Shown: one piece after another, positions 15,462-21,787 of the stretch
How the letters are laid out: the number at the start of each line of letters is the position of its first letter
Position numbering within the stretch: position 1 is the first letter of the stretch
Assembly: GCA_002069525.1 (NCBI GenBank)
Contig: MWBJ01000002.1
Location: 1-44,892 of the forward strand
DNA length: 44,892 nucleotides
Origin: Parcubacteria group bacterium ADurb.Bin305
Lineage (GTDB): Bacteria > Patescibacteriota > Minisyncoccia > UBA6257
Direction of reading: 5' to 3'
Notes under the pieces: generated by a model
What the model was told of the DNA's origin: nothing
The model's database searches: none
What the model saw: the letters and a program-made list of their open reading frames with translations, nothing else
Position numbers and translations under genes: made by a program

Positions 15462-15590
15462 GGATCACCCTGAACGAAGTGAAGGATCTCCTTGTTTTGG
15501 TTATTCTGAACGAAGCGAAGGATTTCTTTGTCCGGTCATCCTGAGCCGTAGGCGAAGGATTTTTATCCTGAGCCTAGTCGAAGGATCTCT
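15462..15590. repeat. four tandem degenerate copies of a short hairpin repeat (core TCCTGAxC...GAAGGATyT)
   Basis: Units at 15462-15490, 15501-15527, 15535-15564 and 15565-15590, each with ATCCT/AGGAT-type self-complementary ends. The array is followed by palindrome CTCGCGCATGCGAG. Confidence 0.7.
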
Positions 15591-17981: not shown

Positions 17982-19826
17982 TTAATAATAATATATTTTC
18001 GTAGCTAACTGAGGATATTTTTTCTGAAGAAATTCTACACTGAGACGATCCAGATTCTTAATATAAATAAAACCTCCTATTGATTCTGGTAAGGTAAGAC
18101 CTTGGGCAGAAGTAAGATTTCTAAGATAAAGAGAACCTCCTATTGATTCTGGTAAGGTAAGACCTTGGGCAGAGGTAAGACTACTAAGGTAAAGATTACC
18201 TCCTATTGATTTGGGTAAGGTAAGATCGTGGACAGAGGTAAGGCTATCAAGACTAAGATAGCCTCCTATTGATTCTGGTAAGGTAAGACCTTGGGCAGAG
18301 GTAAGACTACTAAGATCAAGATAGCCTCCTATTGATTCTGGTAAGGTAAGATCTTGGGCAGAGGTAAGACTACTAAGGTAAAGATTACCTTCTATTGATT
18401 TGGGGAAGGTAATATCTTGGGCCGAGGTAAGGCTATCAAGGCTAAGAGAACCTCCTATTGATTCTGGTAAGGTAAGACCTTGGGCAGAGGTAAGGTCACT
18501 AAGATCCAGATCGCCGTAGTGATAGATAATACCTCCTGCCAAAGCTTCTTCTTTAGTTAGACTAATTTCTTCTTCTTTACAACCTAAAACAAAAGCTAAA
18601 TCTGATTTAATATGGCGTTGCTGTCTGATTTCTTCTATTCTAGGATCTGCCTGCCAACCAAAACCCTCAATAGGAGAATCAATTTCATAAAGGAACCTTA
18701 GGTCTTCTTTAGTAAGCTCTAACCCTTGCTGATGTTTTTTCTCTATCTCAGTAAGGTATTTCATGTCTTGGCTCTTTTTTTGATACTTCTTTCCTTCTTC
18801 ACCAAATTCTTCAAGTTTTTTGGATAAAATATCAGTTTGAGCAATAATATGATCAAGATTCTGTTCATGAGCAATGCCTCTAATTTCTCCTATTCTATTA
18901 CAACCATCCATTCTGATAGCAATTCTAGGAACAGTGGGCTGACCATTTTGGTCGTAAGAATAGTAAACATAAAAATCACCTTGCTGAAGTTGATGTTGAG
19001 CAGTACTTTCTCCAGCAGTACACCAACCAGTAGACCAACCTTGTAAAGACTCAACTAAAGGAGTTGGGTCAGAACCCTGAGGATATTTTCTCCATTCTCC
19101 TTTAGTTTCTAAGAGTTCTTGTCCTTTAGTAGGGCCGACTTTTTCTAAAGCCCAAGCATAGAGTTTACCAAAATTAGCTTCTTTAAGAAGTTTCTTAAAC
19201 TCTGGATTATCCTCTTCTAAGGGAAGGTGTTCTTGGTTGGCTTTCTTAATAACAGCATCTAAGACATAGGCTAAAGCTTCTCTGTTTAAGTCAGGAAAAG
19301 GAGCTACAGTGGACTTATCTCGTTTAGCAAACATGTGCTTTTCTTTATCATAAACAGACAATTTAGTCATACCCTTAAAAGCCCAATATTTAGCCCACAT
19401 GGGGAAACTATCAGACAGAGGGGACAGAAAATAATCTAACCATAAATCTAAGGTTGCTTGTTGGTCTGCCCTGATAATTTCTGCAGCTTGCTGACGCATT
19501 TCTTGAGTAATTTCAATCTCTCCATAACCCTGCTCTCGAGCCAGTCTTCTTTGAGCCTCAAAATAACTATCAGGAATATCTTCTGGTTTGATAATATATT
19601 CCCGATGGTAGTATTCTTTGATTCTAGCTATTACTTCAGGATCATTCCGATGGCTTAAATGTGTTCTTTCTAACAGAGTCAGCCAATCAGTAATTTCCTT
19701 AGCTGGTTTCTGGGAGATTTCTACCCCTGATCTCTTTAATCTTTCTTGTTCATGCTGTACTGGTTCTGATTTATGAAGTTCTGGATTCTGTTTATGTAAA
19801 AATTGCCCTCCTGCATCTTCAAACAT
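17982..19826 (-). CDS. large hypothetical protein with seven C-terminal 21-aa leucine-rich-type repeats
   Basis: 614 aa with an unrecognised helical N-terminal region and a conserved-looking block GWSTGWCTAGESTAQHQLQQGDFYVYY...RIAIRMDGCNRIGEIRGIAHEQN. It ends in 7 repeats of L-x-SLTSAQGLTLPESIGGxLxL. Confidence 0.7.
   Translation of the reverse strand: MFEDAGGQFLHKQNPELHKSEPVQHEQERLKRSGVEISQKPAKEITDWLTLLERTHLSHRNDPEVIARIKEYYHREYIIKPEDIPDSYFEAQRRLAREQGYGEIEITQEMRQQAAEIIRADQQATLDLWLDYFLSPLSDSFPMWAKYWAFKGMTKLSVYDKEKHMFAKRDKSTVAPFPDLNREALAYVLDAVIKKANQEHLPLEEDNPEFKKLLKEANFGKLYAWALEKVGPTKGQELLETKGEWRKYPQGSDPTPLVESLQGWSTGWCTAGESTAQHQLQQGDFYVYYSYDQNGQPTVPRIAIRMDGCNRIGEIRGIAHEQNLDHIIAQTDILSKKLEEFGEEGKKYQKKSQDMKYLTEIEKKHQQGLELTKEDLRFLYEIDSPIEGFGWQADPRIEEIRQQRHIKSDLAFVLGCKEEEISLTKEEALAGGIIYHYGDLDLSDLTSAQGLTLPESIGGSLSLDSLTSAQDITFPKSIEGNLYLSSLTSAQDLTLPESIGGYLDLSSLTSAQGLTLPESIGGYLSLDSLTSVHDLTLPKSIGGNLYLSSLTSAQGLTLPESIGGSLYLRNLTSAQGLTLPESIGGFIYIKNLDRLSVEFLQKKYPQLATKIYYY
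18063..18509 (-). repeat. seven tandem 63-bp coding repeats
   Basis: The string CCTCCTATTGATTCTGGTAAGGTAAGACCTTGGGCAGAGGTAAG recurs with few substitutions at 63-bp spacing inside the 3' end of the 614-aa gene. Confidence 0.85.
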
Positions 19827-19853
19827 CTTTTTAAATATTTATTACTTTAAAAC

Positions 19854-19882
19854 ATTATACCACACAATTCTAATAACGTCTA
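19854..19882 (-). promoter_or_regulatory. promoter for the 614-aa gene (TAGACG, 17-nt spacer, TGgTATAAT)
   Basis: Minus-strand TATAAT at 19854-19859 with an extended -10 TG, and a -35-like TAGACG at 19877-19882; the ATG at 19826 lies about 28 nt downstream. Confidence 0.5.
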
Positions 19883-19924
19883 GCTCCCCTAAATTGAAGA
19901 GGACTCCTATTTAATTTGTGACTT

Positions 19925-20100
19925 TCATCTTACGTGATTTGAAGTAGGAGCGGCAAGGGTTAATTACCAAGAATTTGCTAAATAGTGAATTTTCGCGACC
20001 CCGGCTCGCGGCGCTCGCCTGTCGCCTTTGGCGCCAACTCGCGCATCGCTGCGCCTTTCTCACCCTGACGCAAATCAAGCAGTTGATTTGCTCCACCCCT
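19925..20100 (-). ncRNA. candidate structured ncRNA of unknown class (G+C-rich island)
   Basis: A sharp G+C island in an AT-rich spacer next to tRNA-Trp. Perfect hairpins at 20070-20091, 20041-20054 (GCGA loop in minus sense) and 19994-20010. The only ORF is a 61-aa Arg/Ala/Ser-rich artefact. Confidence 0.35.
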
Positions 20101-20168
20101 TAAAAGCTATCAACAAATAAATTTATCTCTTAAAATTAAAAACTGAAGCTTTGACATCTTACAACCAG

Positions 20169-20241
20169 CAGGGGCGGCAGGGCTCGAACCTGCAACCAAC
20201 GGTTTTGGAGACCGCTACTCTACCAATTGAGCTACGCCCCT
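20169..20241 (-). tRNA. tRNA-Trp (anticodon CCA), 3' CCA not encoded
   Basis: AGGGGCG TA GCTC-AATTGGTA-GAGT; anticodon stem GCGGT/ACCGT with loop CTCCAAA; T-arm GCAGG-TTCGAGC-CCTGC; acceptor CGCCCCT-G. Confidence 0.9.
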
Positions 20242-20266
20242 ATACTCTAAAGCATACCTCTAACAA

Positions 20267-21787
20267 TTAAAATGTCAACATTAATGAAAAATTAATTCTA
20301 TTACCAGATTGCAGAACTGTCTCCGGCGGTATTTTACTAGAAACGAATAATTGAGTTTCATCTAAGCTTTTTTTAAAATTAGTCATTGCCTCTCTTGATG
20401 GTGCCTCGGCTTGAATAGTTATATTGCTAATTAATTCTTCTGTTCCACTCCCTACAAAAATTCTCTTAATATTAACAGTTTCTTGTCTAGCCTTTTGAAA
20501 AATAGTATCTAATACCAATTTCCAATCTTTTTTCCATTGAGTGGTAAATTTAGCATACTCGACTAAAACATTAAACCATTCTGCTTCTTTCTGTAATGCT
20601 TCTTTTTGCGATTTTATACTAGGATCTACACTAACAGCTGCTAATTCTTTATATTTAGCGCTAATATTATTAAAAAATAAATGATTCAATAATATACAAG
20701 TTACTAATAAACAGCTTAAAGCTACTATAACCGAATTAGACCATAAAGCCACAACTCGCGTTATTAAACTTTGATAATAACTCTCTTCGGTTCCCAAAGG
20801 CGCTAAACTGACTATTGAATCTTCTCTTCGAGGAATTAAACCTCTTAAAGCCGCCCCAATTACACCAGCCCAATCTCGCCTCGTGCGCGCTAATGGCTGA
20901 GGTAAATTAAAATTTAAAGCTGTTAAATTATATTGTTTAGCTAACCAGAAAGTCAAGGTATTAACCATTCTCTCATCACTACTTAAAACAATAAAACGCT
21001 CTAAAGAATGACCTCTTTTCAAAGAGTAAAAGTTTAAAATCAAAGGAATTTCCCGCATTAAATGCTGCTGTAAATGGTTTAAAGTAATAGTTTTTGGAAT
21101 ATTTTGTCCAAAAATTTCCTGCCAAGAATCATAATCAAAGTAAATTAACTTATTCTGTTCTGTCACGATAAACTCCAAACCATCTACCCGAAGATCAATT
21201 ACCAGCACTGGTTTTTCTTTCTCCAAGAAGGTGTAAACAAAGCGCGAAACGCTAATCGCCCAAGGTTCAATAGCCACCACTTTAAAACCATAATCTTGCA
21301 AAATATCAGTATAGGGTTTAATTTGCCTTTTTATACCTAAAGCAATAAAAATTTCTTTTTCATCCCTGTTTTTATCAATAACTGTTCCCCAATCTTCCCA
21401 GTCAAAATAGGTCTCTTCTAACGGTAAAGGAGCTACCATTTGAGTGTTAAAAACTACCGCGTCCTGAAATTGCTCATCTGTAAGATCTGGCAAAGTAAAA
21501 ATATTGGTATAAAAATTGCTTGAAGGCAACGAAAGAATAAGCCAAATATGCTTATCCTTAGCCCAAATTTTTTGTTTTAAGGCGCCTATTAAAGCTTGAA
21601 ATTCTTCTGGTTTTTTTAAAATTCCATTTTCGATAACTCCGGGAGGTAATTTATATTGACCAATTTTAGCAACTTGATTAATTGTTTGATTGAAACCAAA
21701 AATTCGCAAGCTAAAATCATCAATAACCAACGCAGTAATTGGAAATTCTGGAACTAATAATTTTTGCAAATCAAACTTTTTTGCCAT
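20267..21787 (-). CDS. type IV pilus assembly PilM-like protein fused to a TM plus PilN-like C-terminal region
   Basis: PilM-like blocks (ITALVIDDFSLRIF, YKLPPGVIENGILKKPEEFQALIGAL, VVAIEPWAISVSRF, VLVIDLRVDGLEFIV), then a TM helix (VVALWSNSVIVALSCLLVTCILL) and a coiled region. Confidence 0.5.
   Translation of the reverse strand: MAKKFDLQKLLVPEFPITALVIDDFSLRIFGFNQTINQVAKIGQYKLPPGVIENGILKKPEEFQALIGALKQKIWAKDKHIWLILSLPSSNFYTNIFTLPDLTDEQFQDAVVFNTQMVAPLPLEETYFDWEDWGTVIDKNRDEKEIFIALGIKRQIKPYTDILQDYGFKVVAIEPWAISVSRFVYTFLEKEKPVLVIDLRVDGLEFIVTEQNKLIYFDYDSWQEIFGQNIPKTITLNHLQQHLMREIPLILNFYSLKRGHSLERFIVLSSDERMVNTLTFWLAKQYNLTALNFNLPQPLARTRRDWAGVIGAALRGLIPRREDSIVSLAPLGTEESYYQSLITRVVALWSNSVIVALSCLLVTCILLNHLFFNNISAKYKELAAVSVDPSIKSQKEALQKEAEWFNVLVEYAKFTTQWKKDWKLVLDTIFQKARQETVNIKRIFVGSGTEELISNITIQAEAPSREAMTNFKKSLDETQLFVSSKIPPETVLQSGNRINFSLMLTF

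What the first reader, a model, noticed from the sequence alone, without database searches (positions are those of the whole stretch)
19925..20100. G+C-rich, hairpin-dense element beside tRNA-Trp: candidate novel structured RNA
In this AT-rich genome the only other intergenic G+C islands I see are tRNAs and the hairpin repeats at 15462-15590. Here a core of about 100 nt (19994-20091) contains several perfect hairpins in minus sense:
- GCAAAUCAA-CUGC-UUGAUUUGC
- GCGCA-GCGA-UGCGC, whose loop is GNRA only in minus sense, the same orientation as tRNA-Trp
- CGCGA-GCCGGGG-UCGCG
- GGCGC...GCGCC

A GGAGC...GCUCC pairing could close the whole domain. The promoter of the downstream gene (19854-19882) lies 3' of the element, so it is probably not simply that gene's leader. 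It could be co-transcribed with tRNA-Trp or be an independent RNA. I could not match it to tmRNA, RNase P, SRP RNA or the riboswitch consensus sequences I remember.
Basis: partly seen in the sequence, partly recalled or inferred. Interest (0 to 1): 0.6.

Follow-up and report, generated by a model that had tools for sequence, protein, structure and literature searches.

The report
tRNA-mimicking RNA element beside tRNA genes
The G+C-rich island next to tRNA-Trp is a slightly worn copy of a widespread, undescribed structured RNA element that sits just after many different tRNA genes in ultra-small bacteria and copies the ends of whichever tRNA it follows.

Summary
Window 19945-20167 (minus strand) is a real, conserved, structured element, and no Rfam 15 family matches it.

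It is not a one-off. Covariance models found it in 31 of 151 genomes of the same order and in 10 of 150 other genomes of the phylum. They also found it in 49 named, mostly Patescibacteria, MAG contigs. It occurs in several copies per genome, often in tandem.

- **Position:** copies lie directly 3' of a same-strand tRNA gene in 25 of 29, 16 of 22, 8 of 10 and 38 of 54 cases. More than 20 tRNA species are involved.
- **Terminal repeat:** each unit ends with a copy of that tRNA's T-loop-to-3'-end. Of 41 tRNAs examined, 32 have it and 18 are exact 17-mers.
- **Closing helix:** 5' segments pair with the terminal repeat, so an acceptor/T-like helix closes a conserved three-helix core.
- **Covariation:** 83-89% of cells pair, against 63-66% in shuffles. 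Two near-invariant G-U pairs fix the RNA sense to the tRNA strand.

The window copy is partly eroded. No dedicated enzyme is linked to the element. Expression and function are untested.

My best reading is a tRNA-gene-associated, tRNA-like processed RNA element that spreads by recombination at tRNA 3' ends.

The parts
20251..20278 (-). Promoter-like site (TTGACA-16-TATGCT, 10 of 12) just upstream of tRNA-Trp. It is a candidate promoter for a tRNA-plus-element transcript.
   Evidence: This is a consensus match only.
20168..20241 (-). tRNA-Trp (CCA), the gene that the element follows and whose ends it copies.
   Evidence: (69.2 bits).
20101..20167 (-). AT-rich spacer between the tRNA and the element body. 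In well-preserved copies this position holds a short 'trailer' hairpin with the loop motif GARCRAAGYGA. The window copy lacks that motif.
   Evidence: The nhmmer match of the family profile reaches 20162.
20094..20100 (-). P0 5' strand (AGGGGUG), a near copy of the tRNA-Trp 5' acceptor strand (AGGGGCG). It pairs with 19946-19952 in 7 pairs, 2 of them G-U.
   Evidence: 1 mismatch in 7; duplex -13.7 kcal/mol.
20070..20091 (-). Hairpin 1: a 9-bp stem with a CUGC loop. It is the best-conserved hairpin of the family.
   Evidence: compensatory changes against G048. (98.7% of cells paired, 8 of 9 pairs with double changes). (98.6%).
20062..20067 (-). P1 5' strand (CAGGGU). It pairs with the T-stem/T-loop-derived part of the terminal repeat at 19954-19960.
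   Evidence: (duplex -8.8 kcal/mol).
20003..20055 (-). Core arm. It comprises P2 (20053-20055 with 20003-20005), P3 (GCG/CGC plus GCGC/GCGC) and a variable apical hairpin (CGCC-AAA-GGCG, 20023-20033). The invariant GCGAG segment lies here.
   Evidence: (P2 91.9% and P3 96.5% of cells paired).
19963..20000 (-). P5 arm. In intact copies this is a 16-bp hairpin with two near-invariant G-U pairs and a CGUCAG loop. In the window its loop and 3' strand are eroded, and cmsearch flags several non-standard pairs.
   Evidence: NC marks; P5 93.8% paired in 54 other copies, with G-U in 49 of 54 at two pairs.
19945..19961 (-). Terminal repeat: a diverged copy (13 of 17) of the last 17 nt of tRNA-Trp, running from the T-loop to the discriminator. 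It supplies the 3' strands of P1 and P0.
19854..19882 (-). Promoter-like site of the downstream 614-aa gene. It lies outside the element and is listed for context only.
   Evidence: The ORF is 17982-19826.

Best explanation
The island is one partly eroded copy of an unannotated, multicopy, structured RNA element family of Patescibacteria-type ultra-small bacteria. The family is physically tied to tRNA genes.

**Shown**
- A unit starts right after a tRNA gene on the same strand.
- It carries a conserved hairpin 1, then a conserved core of helices P2-P3 and P5.
- It ends with a direct repeat of that tRNA from T-loop position 56 to the 3' end.
- Two 5' segments flank hairpin 1. They resemble the tRNA's 5' acceptor strand and its T-stem 5' strand.
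- These segments pair with the terminal repeat, so the whole RNA is closed by an acceptor/T-like helix specific to the neighbouring tRNA.
- The structure is under RNA-level (or single-strand-level) selection in the tRNA sense.

**Inferred**
- The element is transcribed by read-through from the tRNA promoter.
- Its tRNA-like closing helix and tRNA-identical 3' end let RNase P and the tRNA 3'-end machinery cut it out as a discrete, stable RNA of about 150-170 nt.
- The family persists and spreads as a non-autonomous, largely selfish element.
- It is bracketed by tRNA sequence: a whole gene on one side and a copy of 17 to about 80 nt on the other. It can therefore be gained, lost, tandemly amplified and moved between similar tRNA genes and between genomes by host homologous or microhomology recombination, possibly after DNA uptake. 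No enzyme of its own would be needed.
- How the closing segments become matched to unrelated tRNAs is not explained.
For: **Family and spread**
- The second model (R2) found it in 10 of 150 other genomes sampled across the phylum, with up to 7 copies each.
- R2 gave 54 hits in 49 of 80 listed contigs from a 20-mer scan of 185,579 species genomes. By title, 36 of the 49 are Patescibacteria lineages, 9 are labelled only 'bacterium', and 4 are short contigs binned elsewhere.

**Link to tRNA genes**
- A same-strand tRNA lies directly upstream in 25 of 29, 16 of 22, 8 of 10 and 38 of 54 copies.
- Most of the remainder are at contig ends or are second units of tandems.
- 22 different anticodons appear alone.

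**Terminal repeat**
- 32 of 41 tRNAs examined have a copy of their own last 17 nt (4 or fewer changes; 18 exact) 120-310 nt downstream.
- Identity always begins in the T-loop.
- In the window's genome only 2 of 45 tRNAs show such a repeat. Those two are the ones with the element.

**Closing helices are cognate**
- 5' segments pair better with their own terminal repeat than with those of other units. Mann-Whitney p is 6e-5 for the acceptor part and 2e-7 for the T part.
- Mean duplex energy for the T part is -10.1 against -6.7 kcal/mol.

**Covariation**
- A3 (25 sequences, MAFFT alignment): 83.1% of cells paired against 62.9% shuffled (0 of 500 shuffles reach it). 45 of 58 pairs have double changes. 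Slid controls give 35-47%.
- A4 (54 other sequences, model-fitted alignment): 88.7% against 65.9%. 43 of 49 pairs have double changes. Slid controls give 36-45%.
- G-U occurs in 49 of 54 sequences at two P5 pairs.

**Selfish or recombinational behaviour**
- Tandem units and fractional last units occur.
- Nine of 20 fetched regions are cut by contig ends.
- Distribution is patchy: 2 of 7 sampled genomes of the window's family are positive.
- Cores are 97-100% identical at different tRNA loci of one genome while the tRNA-specific ends differ. In G000, C28 against C9 gives core 0.99 and P0 0.17. G138 and G131 show the same pattern.
- The copy at tRNA-Leu(CAA) in G138 carries the terminal repeat of tRNA-Leu(UAA).
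- Between two genera, homology ends exactly at the terminal repeat.
- The window copy itself is eroded.

**Co-transcription is plausible**
- A promoter-like site lies upstream of tRNA-Trp, and no terminator-like site lies between the tRNA and the element.
Against: **No expression evidence**
- Three metatranscriptome runs covered only tRNA-Trp-like pieces from other organisms.
- The one run that covers the element is probably DNA.

**No mobilising enzyme found**
- No recurrent neighbouring gene appears in 30 loci (+-1.5 kb) or 49 loci (up to 8 kb).
- A tyrosine recombinase is present in 143 of 151 genomes, mostly as a single gene, regardless of the element.
- RT is present in 17 of 31 element-positive and 58 of 120 element-negative genomes (my count).
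- Five element-rich genomes have no Y1/IS200, TnpB-type or IS110 transposase domain.
- Two exact-motif scans of viral contigs found nothing.

**Points that favour other readings**
- Phylum-wide conservation of a multi-helix fold with invariant junction residues and G-U pairs is more than a passive repeat needs. It argues that the RNA does something, either for the host or for its own propagation.
- Near-identical cores within a genome could reflect gene conversion between old copies rather than recent movement.

**Gaps**
- Recombination with a tRNA 3' end explains the terminal repeat. It does not explain how the internal 5' segments come to match an unrelated tRNA.
- No empty-site or filled-site pair was found.
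Confidence: 0.5

Rival explanations
1. It is a host-useful, trans-acting tRNA-mimic RNA. The unit is a D-armless tRNA derivative with a large insertion in its T-loop. Its acceptor/T-like end, identical to the neighbouring tRNA, makes it a ligand or decoy for a tRNA-handling factor. Candidates are RNase P, the CCA-adding enzyme, an aminoacyl-tRNA synthetase, EF-Tu, or a tRNA-directed nuclease of a phage or competitor. The conserved core binds or senses something else. Multicopy and tandem states would then be dosage effects, not selfish spread.
For: - The fold is conserved phylum-wide, with invariant junction residues (GCGAG, AG) and two near-invariant G-U pairs.
- It is retained in very small, streamlined genomes of 0.4-1.3 Mb.
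- The tRNA-Ser(GGA)-plus-element block is 85% identical between two genera whose PilM-like proteins are about 48% identical.
- No transposase or integrase is linked to it.
- The closing helix reproduces the acceptor-stem and discriminator positions of the cognate tRNA.
Against: - It is absent from most genomes searched: 120 of 151 in the order with R1 and 140 of 150 in the phylum sample with R2. It is therefore dispensable.
- The tRNA species carrying it differ between related genomes.
- Decayed copies exist, such as the window's.
- The exact 17-mer repeats extend into the non-functional 3' trailer. This points to a duplication mechanism rather than selection for mimicry.
- No partner protein has been identified.
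Confidence: 0.3
2. It is an RNA-dependent mobile element of a new kind. The RNA itself directs or catalyses insertion at tRNA genes, with its closing segments acting as guides. Copying would go through a host or DGR-type reverse transcriptase, or through a circular intermediate.
For: - RNA-level selection operates on a repeat that has no protein of its own.
- Guide-like segments complementary to the target tRNA 3' part flank hairpin 1.
- Cores are 97-100% identical while the tRNA-specific ends are completely exchanged.
- Arrays end with fractional units, as multimeric intermediates would leave.
- All 3 element-positive genomes of the window's family have an RT, against 1 of 5 element-negative ones (my count).
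Against: - Order-wide, RT shows no association with the element: 17 of 31 positives against 58 of 120 negatives.
- 14 element-positive genomes lack a detectable RT.
- No ribozyme family matches.
- No circular or empty-site evidence was obtained.
- The guide segments are paired in cis with the terminal repeat.
Confidence: 0.12
3. It is a DNA-level attachment-site scar. The units would be remnants (attL/attR plus arms) of integrative elements that use tRNA T-loop-to-3'-end sites, or miniature cis-mobilisable elements moved by an integrase in trans. On this reading the hairpins are protein-binding palindromes, not RNA structure.
For: - The direct repeat runs from the T-loop to the tRNA 3' end. 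From memory, this is the classical layout for tyrosine-integrase sites in tRNA genes. It is observed here.
- Tandem accretion occurs downstream of tRNA genes.
Against: - Conserved G-U pairs and G-U-compatible substitutions are strand-specific. This does not fit double-stranded palindromes.
- No T-stem 5' strand abuts the right-hand repeat, as an attR core would require.
- Element-rich genomes carry a single tyrosine recombinase, like the others (G131 and G138 have one each).
- No integrase lies next to any of 79 loci.
- A unit is only 140-200 bp.
Confidence: 0.05
4. It is a cis-regulatory leader or riboswitch of the downstream 614-aa gene, or a fragment of a foreign G+C-rich gene or chance structure.
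For: - The element lies upstream of the 614-aa ORF on the same strand.
- Single-sequence folding energy is no better than in shuffles.
Against: - Downstream genes are unrelated across loci, and in G048 the next gene is convergent.
- A promoter-like site for the 614-aa gene lies downstream of the element.
- The reading frames of the conserved blocks differ between homologues.
- Homologues with covariation exist across the phylum.
Confidence: 0.03

Closest known systems
tmRNA (SsrA), tRNA-like domain
   Same: The 5' and 3' ends pair into an acceptor-like stem ending in a tRNA-type 3' end. A large non-tRNA insertion is carried inside a D-armless tRNA frame.
   Different: - tmRNA keeps an intact T-arm and carries its insertion in the anticodon-stem position. 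Here the insertion sits in the T-loop position and the 'anticodon' position is a closed 9-bp hairpin.
- There is no tag ORF.
- ARAGORN and RF00023 find the genome's single tmRNA elsewhere (C15) and not here.
- This element is multicopy and its ends follow the neighbouring tRNA.
tRNA-like modules cut out by tRNA-processing enzymes (mascRNA/MALAT1, engineered tRNA scaffolds). Recalled; the related papers were seen only as listings.
   Same: The proposed logic is shared: a tRNA-like helix lets RNase P/Z release and stabilise an RNA from a longer transcript.
   Different: - Those examples are eukaryotic or artificial.
- Processing has not been tested here.
- The mimic here is renewed for each neighbouring tRNA.
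Integrative elements and their miniature derivatives at tRNA genes (genomic islands, CIMEs, tycheposons). Recalled; one preprint on tRNA genes as integration sites was seen as a listing.
   Same: A direct repeat of the tRNA 3' part bounds the inserted DNA. Tandem accretion occurs downstream of the tRNA.
   Different: - Units are only 140-200 bp.
- They have no integrase or cargo.
- An RNA-type covarying fold is present.
- They contain internal segments complementary to the repeat.
- They are found at more than 20 tRNA species.
REP/BIME and MITE-type small repeats
   Same: These are also short, multicopy, hairpin-rich, intergenic, non-coding repeats, and assemblies break at them.
   Different: - This element has strict tRNA-3' placement and a single orientation.
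- It has a complex multi-helix conserved core.
- No RAYT/IS200-type Y1 transposase occurs in five carrier genomes.
- A separate REP-like small hairpin repeat does exist in this genome (window 15462-15590), and it shares its loop motif with the element's trailer hairpin.
Bacterial Y RNA-like YrlA (PMC4201824; search listing and start of the abstract seen)
   Same: It is a bacterial non-coding RNA with a tRNA-mimicking module, sometimes present in several adjacent copies.
   Different: - From memory, in YrlA the tRNA-like part is internal and the ends form the Ro-binding stem.
- No Ro60/TROVE gene occurs in five carrier genomes.
- There is no Rfam match.
Guide RNAs of mobile elements (IS110 bridge RNA, TnpB/IscB omega RNA). 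Recalled.
   Same: A structured RNA encoded by a repeat carries segments complementary to the insertion target.
   Different: - No IS110 DEDD or TnpB-type domain occurs in five carrier genomes.
- The guide-like segments are paired in cis.
- There is no adjacent protein gene.

Membership tests
Any Rfam 15 family (4227 models, including SRP, RNase P, tmRNA, 6S, riboswitches and ribozymes) | Score at or above the family's gathering threshold, or at least a credible sub-threshold match over the element | tested here: not met
   - (window) found only tRNAs. The two E>2 matches lie at 19788-19865, outside the core.
- One search scanned nine well-preserved loci at E<=1. It found only tRNAs plus scattered sub-threshold hits far below their cut-offs.
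tRNA (RF00005 / ARAGORN) | Cloverleaf with D, anticodon and T arms | tested here: not met
   Neither ARAGORN nor RF00005 calls the element in any locus. It keeps only acceptor-like and T-stem-like strands.
tmRNA | tRNA-like domain with an intact T-arm, plus a tag reading frame and pseudoknots | tested here: not met
   One search finds no tmRNA in the window. One search finds the genome's tmRNA on C15 (153 bits), and nothing at the element.
Bacterial SRP RNA | Domain IV hairpin that binds the Ffh M domain, with Ffh present in the genome | tested here: not met
   - RF00169 and RF01854 give no match in G000.
- PF02978 and PF00448 are not found.
- The element is multicopy.
Integrase att sites in tRNA genes | Direct repeat of the tRNA 3' part bounding the insert | tested here: met
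   32 of 41 tRNAs examined have it, and identity begins in the T-loop.
Integrase att sites in tRNA genes | An integrase encoded in or beside the element, or extra integrases in carrier genomes | tested here: not met
   - Searches find no recurrent neighbour.
- One search finds a tyrosine recombinase in 143 of 151 genomes, usually a single gene, whether or not the element is present.
REP/RAYT or IS200/IS605-derived miniature elements | A Y1 HUH transposase in the genome | tested here: not met
   0 of 5 carrier genomes have one (controls ring in 6 of 14).
TnpB/IscB omega-RNA or IS110 bridge RNA | A cognate nuclease or recombinase gene next to the RNA or in the genome | tested here: not met
   - 0 of 5 carrier genomes have one.
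- no recurrent neighbour.
- The weak HNH_5 hit (17 bits; cut-off 27.5) in the window's downstream ORF is below threshold.
Retron / RT-linked ncRNA | A reverse transcriptase adjacent to, or co-occurring with, the RNA | tested here: not met
   - RT is present in 17 of 31 positives and 58 of 120 negatives.
- It is not adjacent.
Y RNA-like (YrlA) | A Ro60 (TROVE) gene in the genome, usually adjacent | tested here: not met
   0 of 5 carrier genomes have one.
Riboswitch / leader | A conserved class of downstream gene on the same strand | tested here: not met
Self-cleaving ribozymes | Catalytic core motifs or cleavage activity | not testable with these tools
   There are no Rfam ribozyme hits. Activity cannot be assayed here.

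The most novel reading that the evidence does not exclude
This would be a new class of genetic element: a protein-less, RNA-structured unit that colonises tRNA genes. It re-tailors its own closing helices to each target tRNA, yielding a tRNA-scaffolded RNA processed by the tRNA machinery.

If the RNA itself guides or catalyses insertion, or is copied through a circular or multimeric intermediate, it would be an RNA-programmed mobile element without a dedicated enzyme.

If instead it serves the host, it would be a family of tRNA-specific decoy RNAs in the smallest known bacterial genomes.
Probability: 0.3. Interest if true: 0.9.

Novelty: categorically new. Interest (0 to 1): 0.8.

Why it matters
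Patescibacteria make up a large share of bacterial diversity, and their genomes have very little non-coding DNA. A complex, strongly covarying RNA present in many copies is therefore unexpected. The same applies to its tie to tRNA genes and to its absence from Rfam 15 and from the literature I could search.

It offers three things:
- A new structured RNA family to annotate. It also explains many contig breaks next to tRNA genes in these MAGs.
- A natural example of a tRNA scaffold closing a foreign RNA domain.
- A tractable puzzle: how does a repeat with no enzyme of its own acquire ends that match each tRNA it follows? This bears on recombination, natural transformation and possibly RNA-guided mobility in ultra-small bacteria.

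Cultivable Saccharibacteria appear to carry copies, so the questions are testable at the bench.

Tried and rejected
**SRP RNA.** I considered a divergent SRP RNA because RF00169 finds none in this genome or in 41 relatives. I rejected it because Ffh and FtsY domains are also not found and the element is multicopy.

**Small protein gene.** Rejected. Minus-strand ORFs cover the element in the window (61 aa) and in G048 (52 aa), but the conserved nucleotide blocks fall in different frames. There is no Pfam hit.

**BLAST.** BLAST alone found only one homologue in 60 relatives and none elsewhere in the own genome. Covariance models were needed.

**Empty-site comparison.**
- The PilM-like gene beside tRNA-Trp is conserved in 20 of 26 family genomes, but none has a tRNA after it.
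- tRNA-Ser(GGA) loci share only upstream synteny.
- G001 and G007 share only the tRNA-plus-element block.
- No empty or filled pair was obtained.

**Expression.**
- Runs X17-X19 (metatranscriptomes) covered only 35-60-nt tRNA-like pieces at 90-95% likeness, within contigs of other organisms.
- X15 covers 19647-20181 but is probably DNA.
- This is no evidence for or against transcription.

**Terminators.** My crude regex found 0 of 52. Yet hairpin-plus-U-run terminators are visible by eye after the terminal repeat in several printed loci (L025, L027, L044, L050; L097). I treat the regex as faulty and make no count.

**Loop-loop pairing.** Pairing between the hairpin-1 loop CUGC and the GCAG junction shows no covariation in the variants (my reading).

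**Viral carriage.** Two exact-motif scans found nothing. Exact motifs would miss diverged copies.

**Literature.** Eight searches found no description of such an element. I saw only listings and the starts of abstracts and read no paper in full. Supplements are closed and subscription journals are not covered, so a prior description may exist.

Full report
**1. The observation**

The window's minus strand carries tRNA-Trp(CCA) at 20168-20241. A stretch of 58-65% G+C at about 19950-20099 follows it, in flanks of 30-38%.

Single-sequence folding is no better than in shuffles. The minus strand gives z -0.41 and the plus strand gives z -0.80.

Rfam 15 gives nothing over the island at gathering thresholds or at E<=10.

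The host genome (G000) has 573,528 bp in 63 contigs and is 90% complete. It is bacterial: RNase P RNA lies on C10 and tmRNA on C15.

**2. Homologues**

BLAST found one real match in 60 relatives (G048; 77% identity; E 1.5e-12). That copy also lies just 3' of a same-strand tRNA, tRNA-Pro(GGG). It is followed by a convergent gene.

The 9-bp hairpin shows four compensatory pairs between the two copies.

- **Model R1 (two sequences):** it hit 31 of 151 genomes of the order. Several had multiple copies: G000 has 5, G131 has 9 and G138 has 6. Copies are often in tandem.
- **Model R2 (25 sequences, 144 positions, 49 pairs):** it hit 10 of 150 other genomes sampled across the phylum.
- **20-mer scan:** a scan of one genome per 185,579 species returned at least 118 stretches, of which 80 were listed.
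- **R2 on the listed contigs:** R2 confirmed 54 copies in 49 of the 80. By title, 36 are Patescibacteria lineages. These include Paceibacterota/Parcubacteria, Wolfe-, Colwell-, Jorgensen-, Nomura-, Gribaldo- and Harrisonbacteria, and 11 Saccharibacteria.
- **The remaining 13 positive contigs:** nine are labelled only 'bacterium'. Four are short contigs binned as Elusimicrobia, Thermoanaerobaculaceae or Gammaproteobacteria.
- **The 31 contigs without a copy:** these are mostly G+C-rich genomes and look like chance matches.

**3. Anatomy**

In RNA sense, which is the tRNA strand, a unit reads as follows:

1. The tRNA gene.
2. A short trailer hairpin whose loop is GARCRAAGYGA.
3. About 7 nt resembling the tRNA's 5' acceptor strand, then RAGC.
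4. Hairpin 1 (9 bp, loop CUGC).
5. GU(C), then a T-stem-5'-like segment ending in AUUCGAAG.
6. The core: P2 (3 bp), P3 (GCG/CGC plus 4 bp) with a variable apical hairpin, and the invariant GCGAG.
7. P5, a 16-bp hairpin with loop CGUCAG.
8. A direct repeat of the tRNA from T-loop C56 to the discriminator.

The repeat often runs on into the tRNA's 3' trailer.

**4. Link to tRNA genes**

| Set of copies | With a same-strand tRNA directly upstream |
|---|---|
| Best hit per genome, order | 25 of 29 |
| Further copies | 16 of 22 |
| Phylum sample | 8 of 10 |
| Named-MAG copies | 38 of 54 (5 more at contig ends) |

More than 20 tRNA species are involved.

Of 41 tRNAs examined, 32 have a copy of their own last 17 nt 120-310 nt downstream, with 4 or fewer changes. 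Eighteen of these are exact. By my calculation, chance would give about 0.003 such repeats per tRNA.

Within G000 only 2 of 45 tRNAs show such a repeat, and those are the two with the element. The 5' segments pair better with their own terminal repeat than with those of other units (Mann-Whitney p 6e-5 and 2e-7).

**5. Structure**

| Alignment | Cells paired | Shuffled | Pairs with double changes | Slid controls |
|---|---|---|---|---|
| A3 (25 sequences, MAFFT) | 83.1% | 62.9% (0 of 500 reach it) | 45 of 58 | 35-47% |
| A4 (54 named-MAG copies, model-fitted, so leaning) | 88.7% | 65.9% | 43 of 49 | 36-45% |

Two P5 pairs are G-U in 49 of 54 sequences, and several other pairs alternate G-C and G-U. 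This fixes the sense to the tRNA strand. It also argues for single-strand (RNA) selection rather than duplex palindromes.

Their strands belong to P3, P2 and P5.

**6. The window copy**

R2 scores it at 100.4 bits over 19946-20100. This is partly circular, because the copy is in the seed alignment. nhmmer with the unit profile covers 19948-20162.

It keeps these parts:
- P0 (20094-20100 with 19946-19952)
- hairpin 1
- P1, P2 and P3

Three things have changed. It has an AT-rich spacer in place of the trailer hairpin. The loop and 3' strand of P5 are eroded. The terminal repeat matches tRNA-Trp at only 13 of 17 positions.

The window's genome also has two tandem units after tRNA-Leu(CAA) on C9. 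A further 1.5 units with Pro-type ends lie at the end of C28.

**7. Behaviour**

- Cores are 97-100% identical at different tRNA loci in one genome while the tRNA-specific ends differ:
  - G000, C28 against C9: core 0.99, P0 0.17.
  - G138, Ala locus against another locus: core 0.97.
  - G138, Leu-CAA, Leu-UAA and Leu-UAG loci: core 0.99-1.00.
  - G131, Pro-CGG against Pro-UGG: core 0.98.
- Diverged subfamilies coexist in one genome.
- The G138 copy at tRNA-Leu(CAA) carries the terminal repeat of tRNA-Leu(UAA). This points to transfer between similar tRNA genes by homology.
- Arrays end with fractional units.
- Nine of 20 fetched regions are cut by contig ends.
- G001 and G007 share an 85%-identical tRNA-Ser-plus-element block, and their homology stops at the terminal repeat.

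**8. What is not there**

- No recurrent neighbouring gene.
- Tyrosine recombinase in 143 of 151 genomes, usually as a single gene.
- RT in 17 of 31 element-positive and 58 of 120 element-negative genomes.
- No Y1/IS200, TnpB-type, IS110 or Ro60 domains in five carrier genomes.
- No viral-contig matches to two motifs.
- No usable expression data.
- No description in eight literature searches, where I saw listings only.

**9. Interpretation**

Shown: this is a new, widespread, tRNA-gene-linked structured element whose closing helix copies the neighbouring tRNA.

Inferred:
- It is co-transcribed with the tRNA. A promoter-like site lies upstream of tRNA-Trp and no terminator-like site lies between the two.
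- It is released by the tRNA-processing machinery.
- It is gained, lost and amplified by host recombination through the tRNA sequence that brackets it.

I put about 0.5 on this largely selfish, non-autonomous reading. I put 0.3 on a host-useful tRNA-mimic RNA, 0.12 on an RNA-programmed mobile element, and the rest on att scars, a leader or chance.

The step no reading explains is how the internal 5' segments become matched to unrelated tRNAs.

Noticed in passing
Whole genome G000 and 40 relatives of the same order: The signal recognition particle seems to be missing.
- No SRP RNA: RF00169 reaches its cut-off in 0 of 41 genomes, and RF01854 finds none in G000.
- No Ffh M domain: PF02978 reaches its cut-off in 0 of 41.
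- No SRP54-type GTPase domain over the cut-off in G000.
- Controls ring in 13-14 of 14 genomes.
- The single 21-bit RF00169 hit lies in an AT-rich coding stretch.

Loss of SRP from a whole bacterial order would be unusual.
   Followed up: partly
window 15462-15590 (+), and G000 C1:40951-41180, C7:13, C10:13590/13984, C35:63: This is a second, small REP-like repeat: hairpins of the form YCCUGA-[RC-GAA-GY]-GAAGGAU. Four occur in tandem in the window, and about ten more occur elsewhere in the genome.

The same loop motif forms the 'trailer hairpin' that begins units of the tRNA-linked element. A loose regex gave 29 matches against 12.9 in shuffles.
   Followed up: partly
window 17982-19826 (-): The 614-aa ORF downstream of the element has only a sub-threshold HNH_5 match (17 bits; cut-off 27.5). 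It is not linked to the element at other loci.
   Followed up: no
G000:C4:31049-31648: This is a reverse transcriptase (PF00078, 82.5 bits; ORF of about 347 aa). RTs of similar size occur in 75 of 151 genomes of the order. From memory, this size is typical of diversity-generating retroelement RTs. No link to the element was found.
   Followed up: no
L027 (G108:C28), tRNA-Asn locus: Here hairpin 1 follows the tRNA 3' end directly. The palindromic acceptor stem (CCGCGG) of tRNA-Asn appears to double as the element's 5' acceptor-like strand, giving a shortened unit with a repeat distance of 140 nt.
   Followed up: no
L125, L161, L158, L138 (named MAG contigs): True copies of the element lie on contigs binned as Elusimicrobia, Elusimicrobiales, Thermoanaerobaculaceae and Gammaproteobacteria. 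The contigs are 28.8, 5.4, 2.5 and 6.2 kb long. They are either misbinned Patescibacteria contigs or evidence of spread outside the phylum.
   Followed up: no
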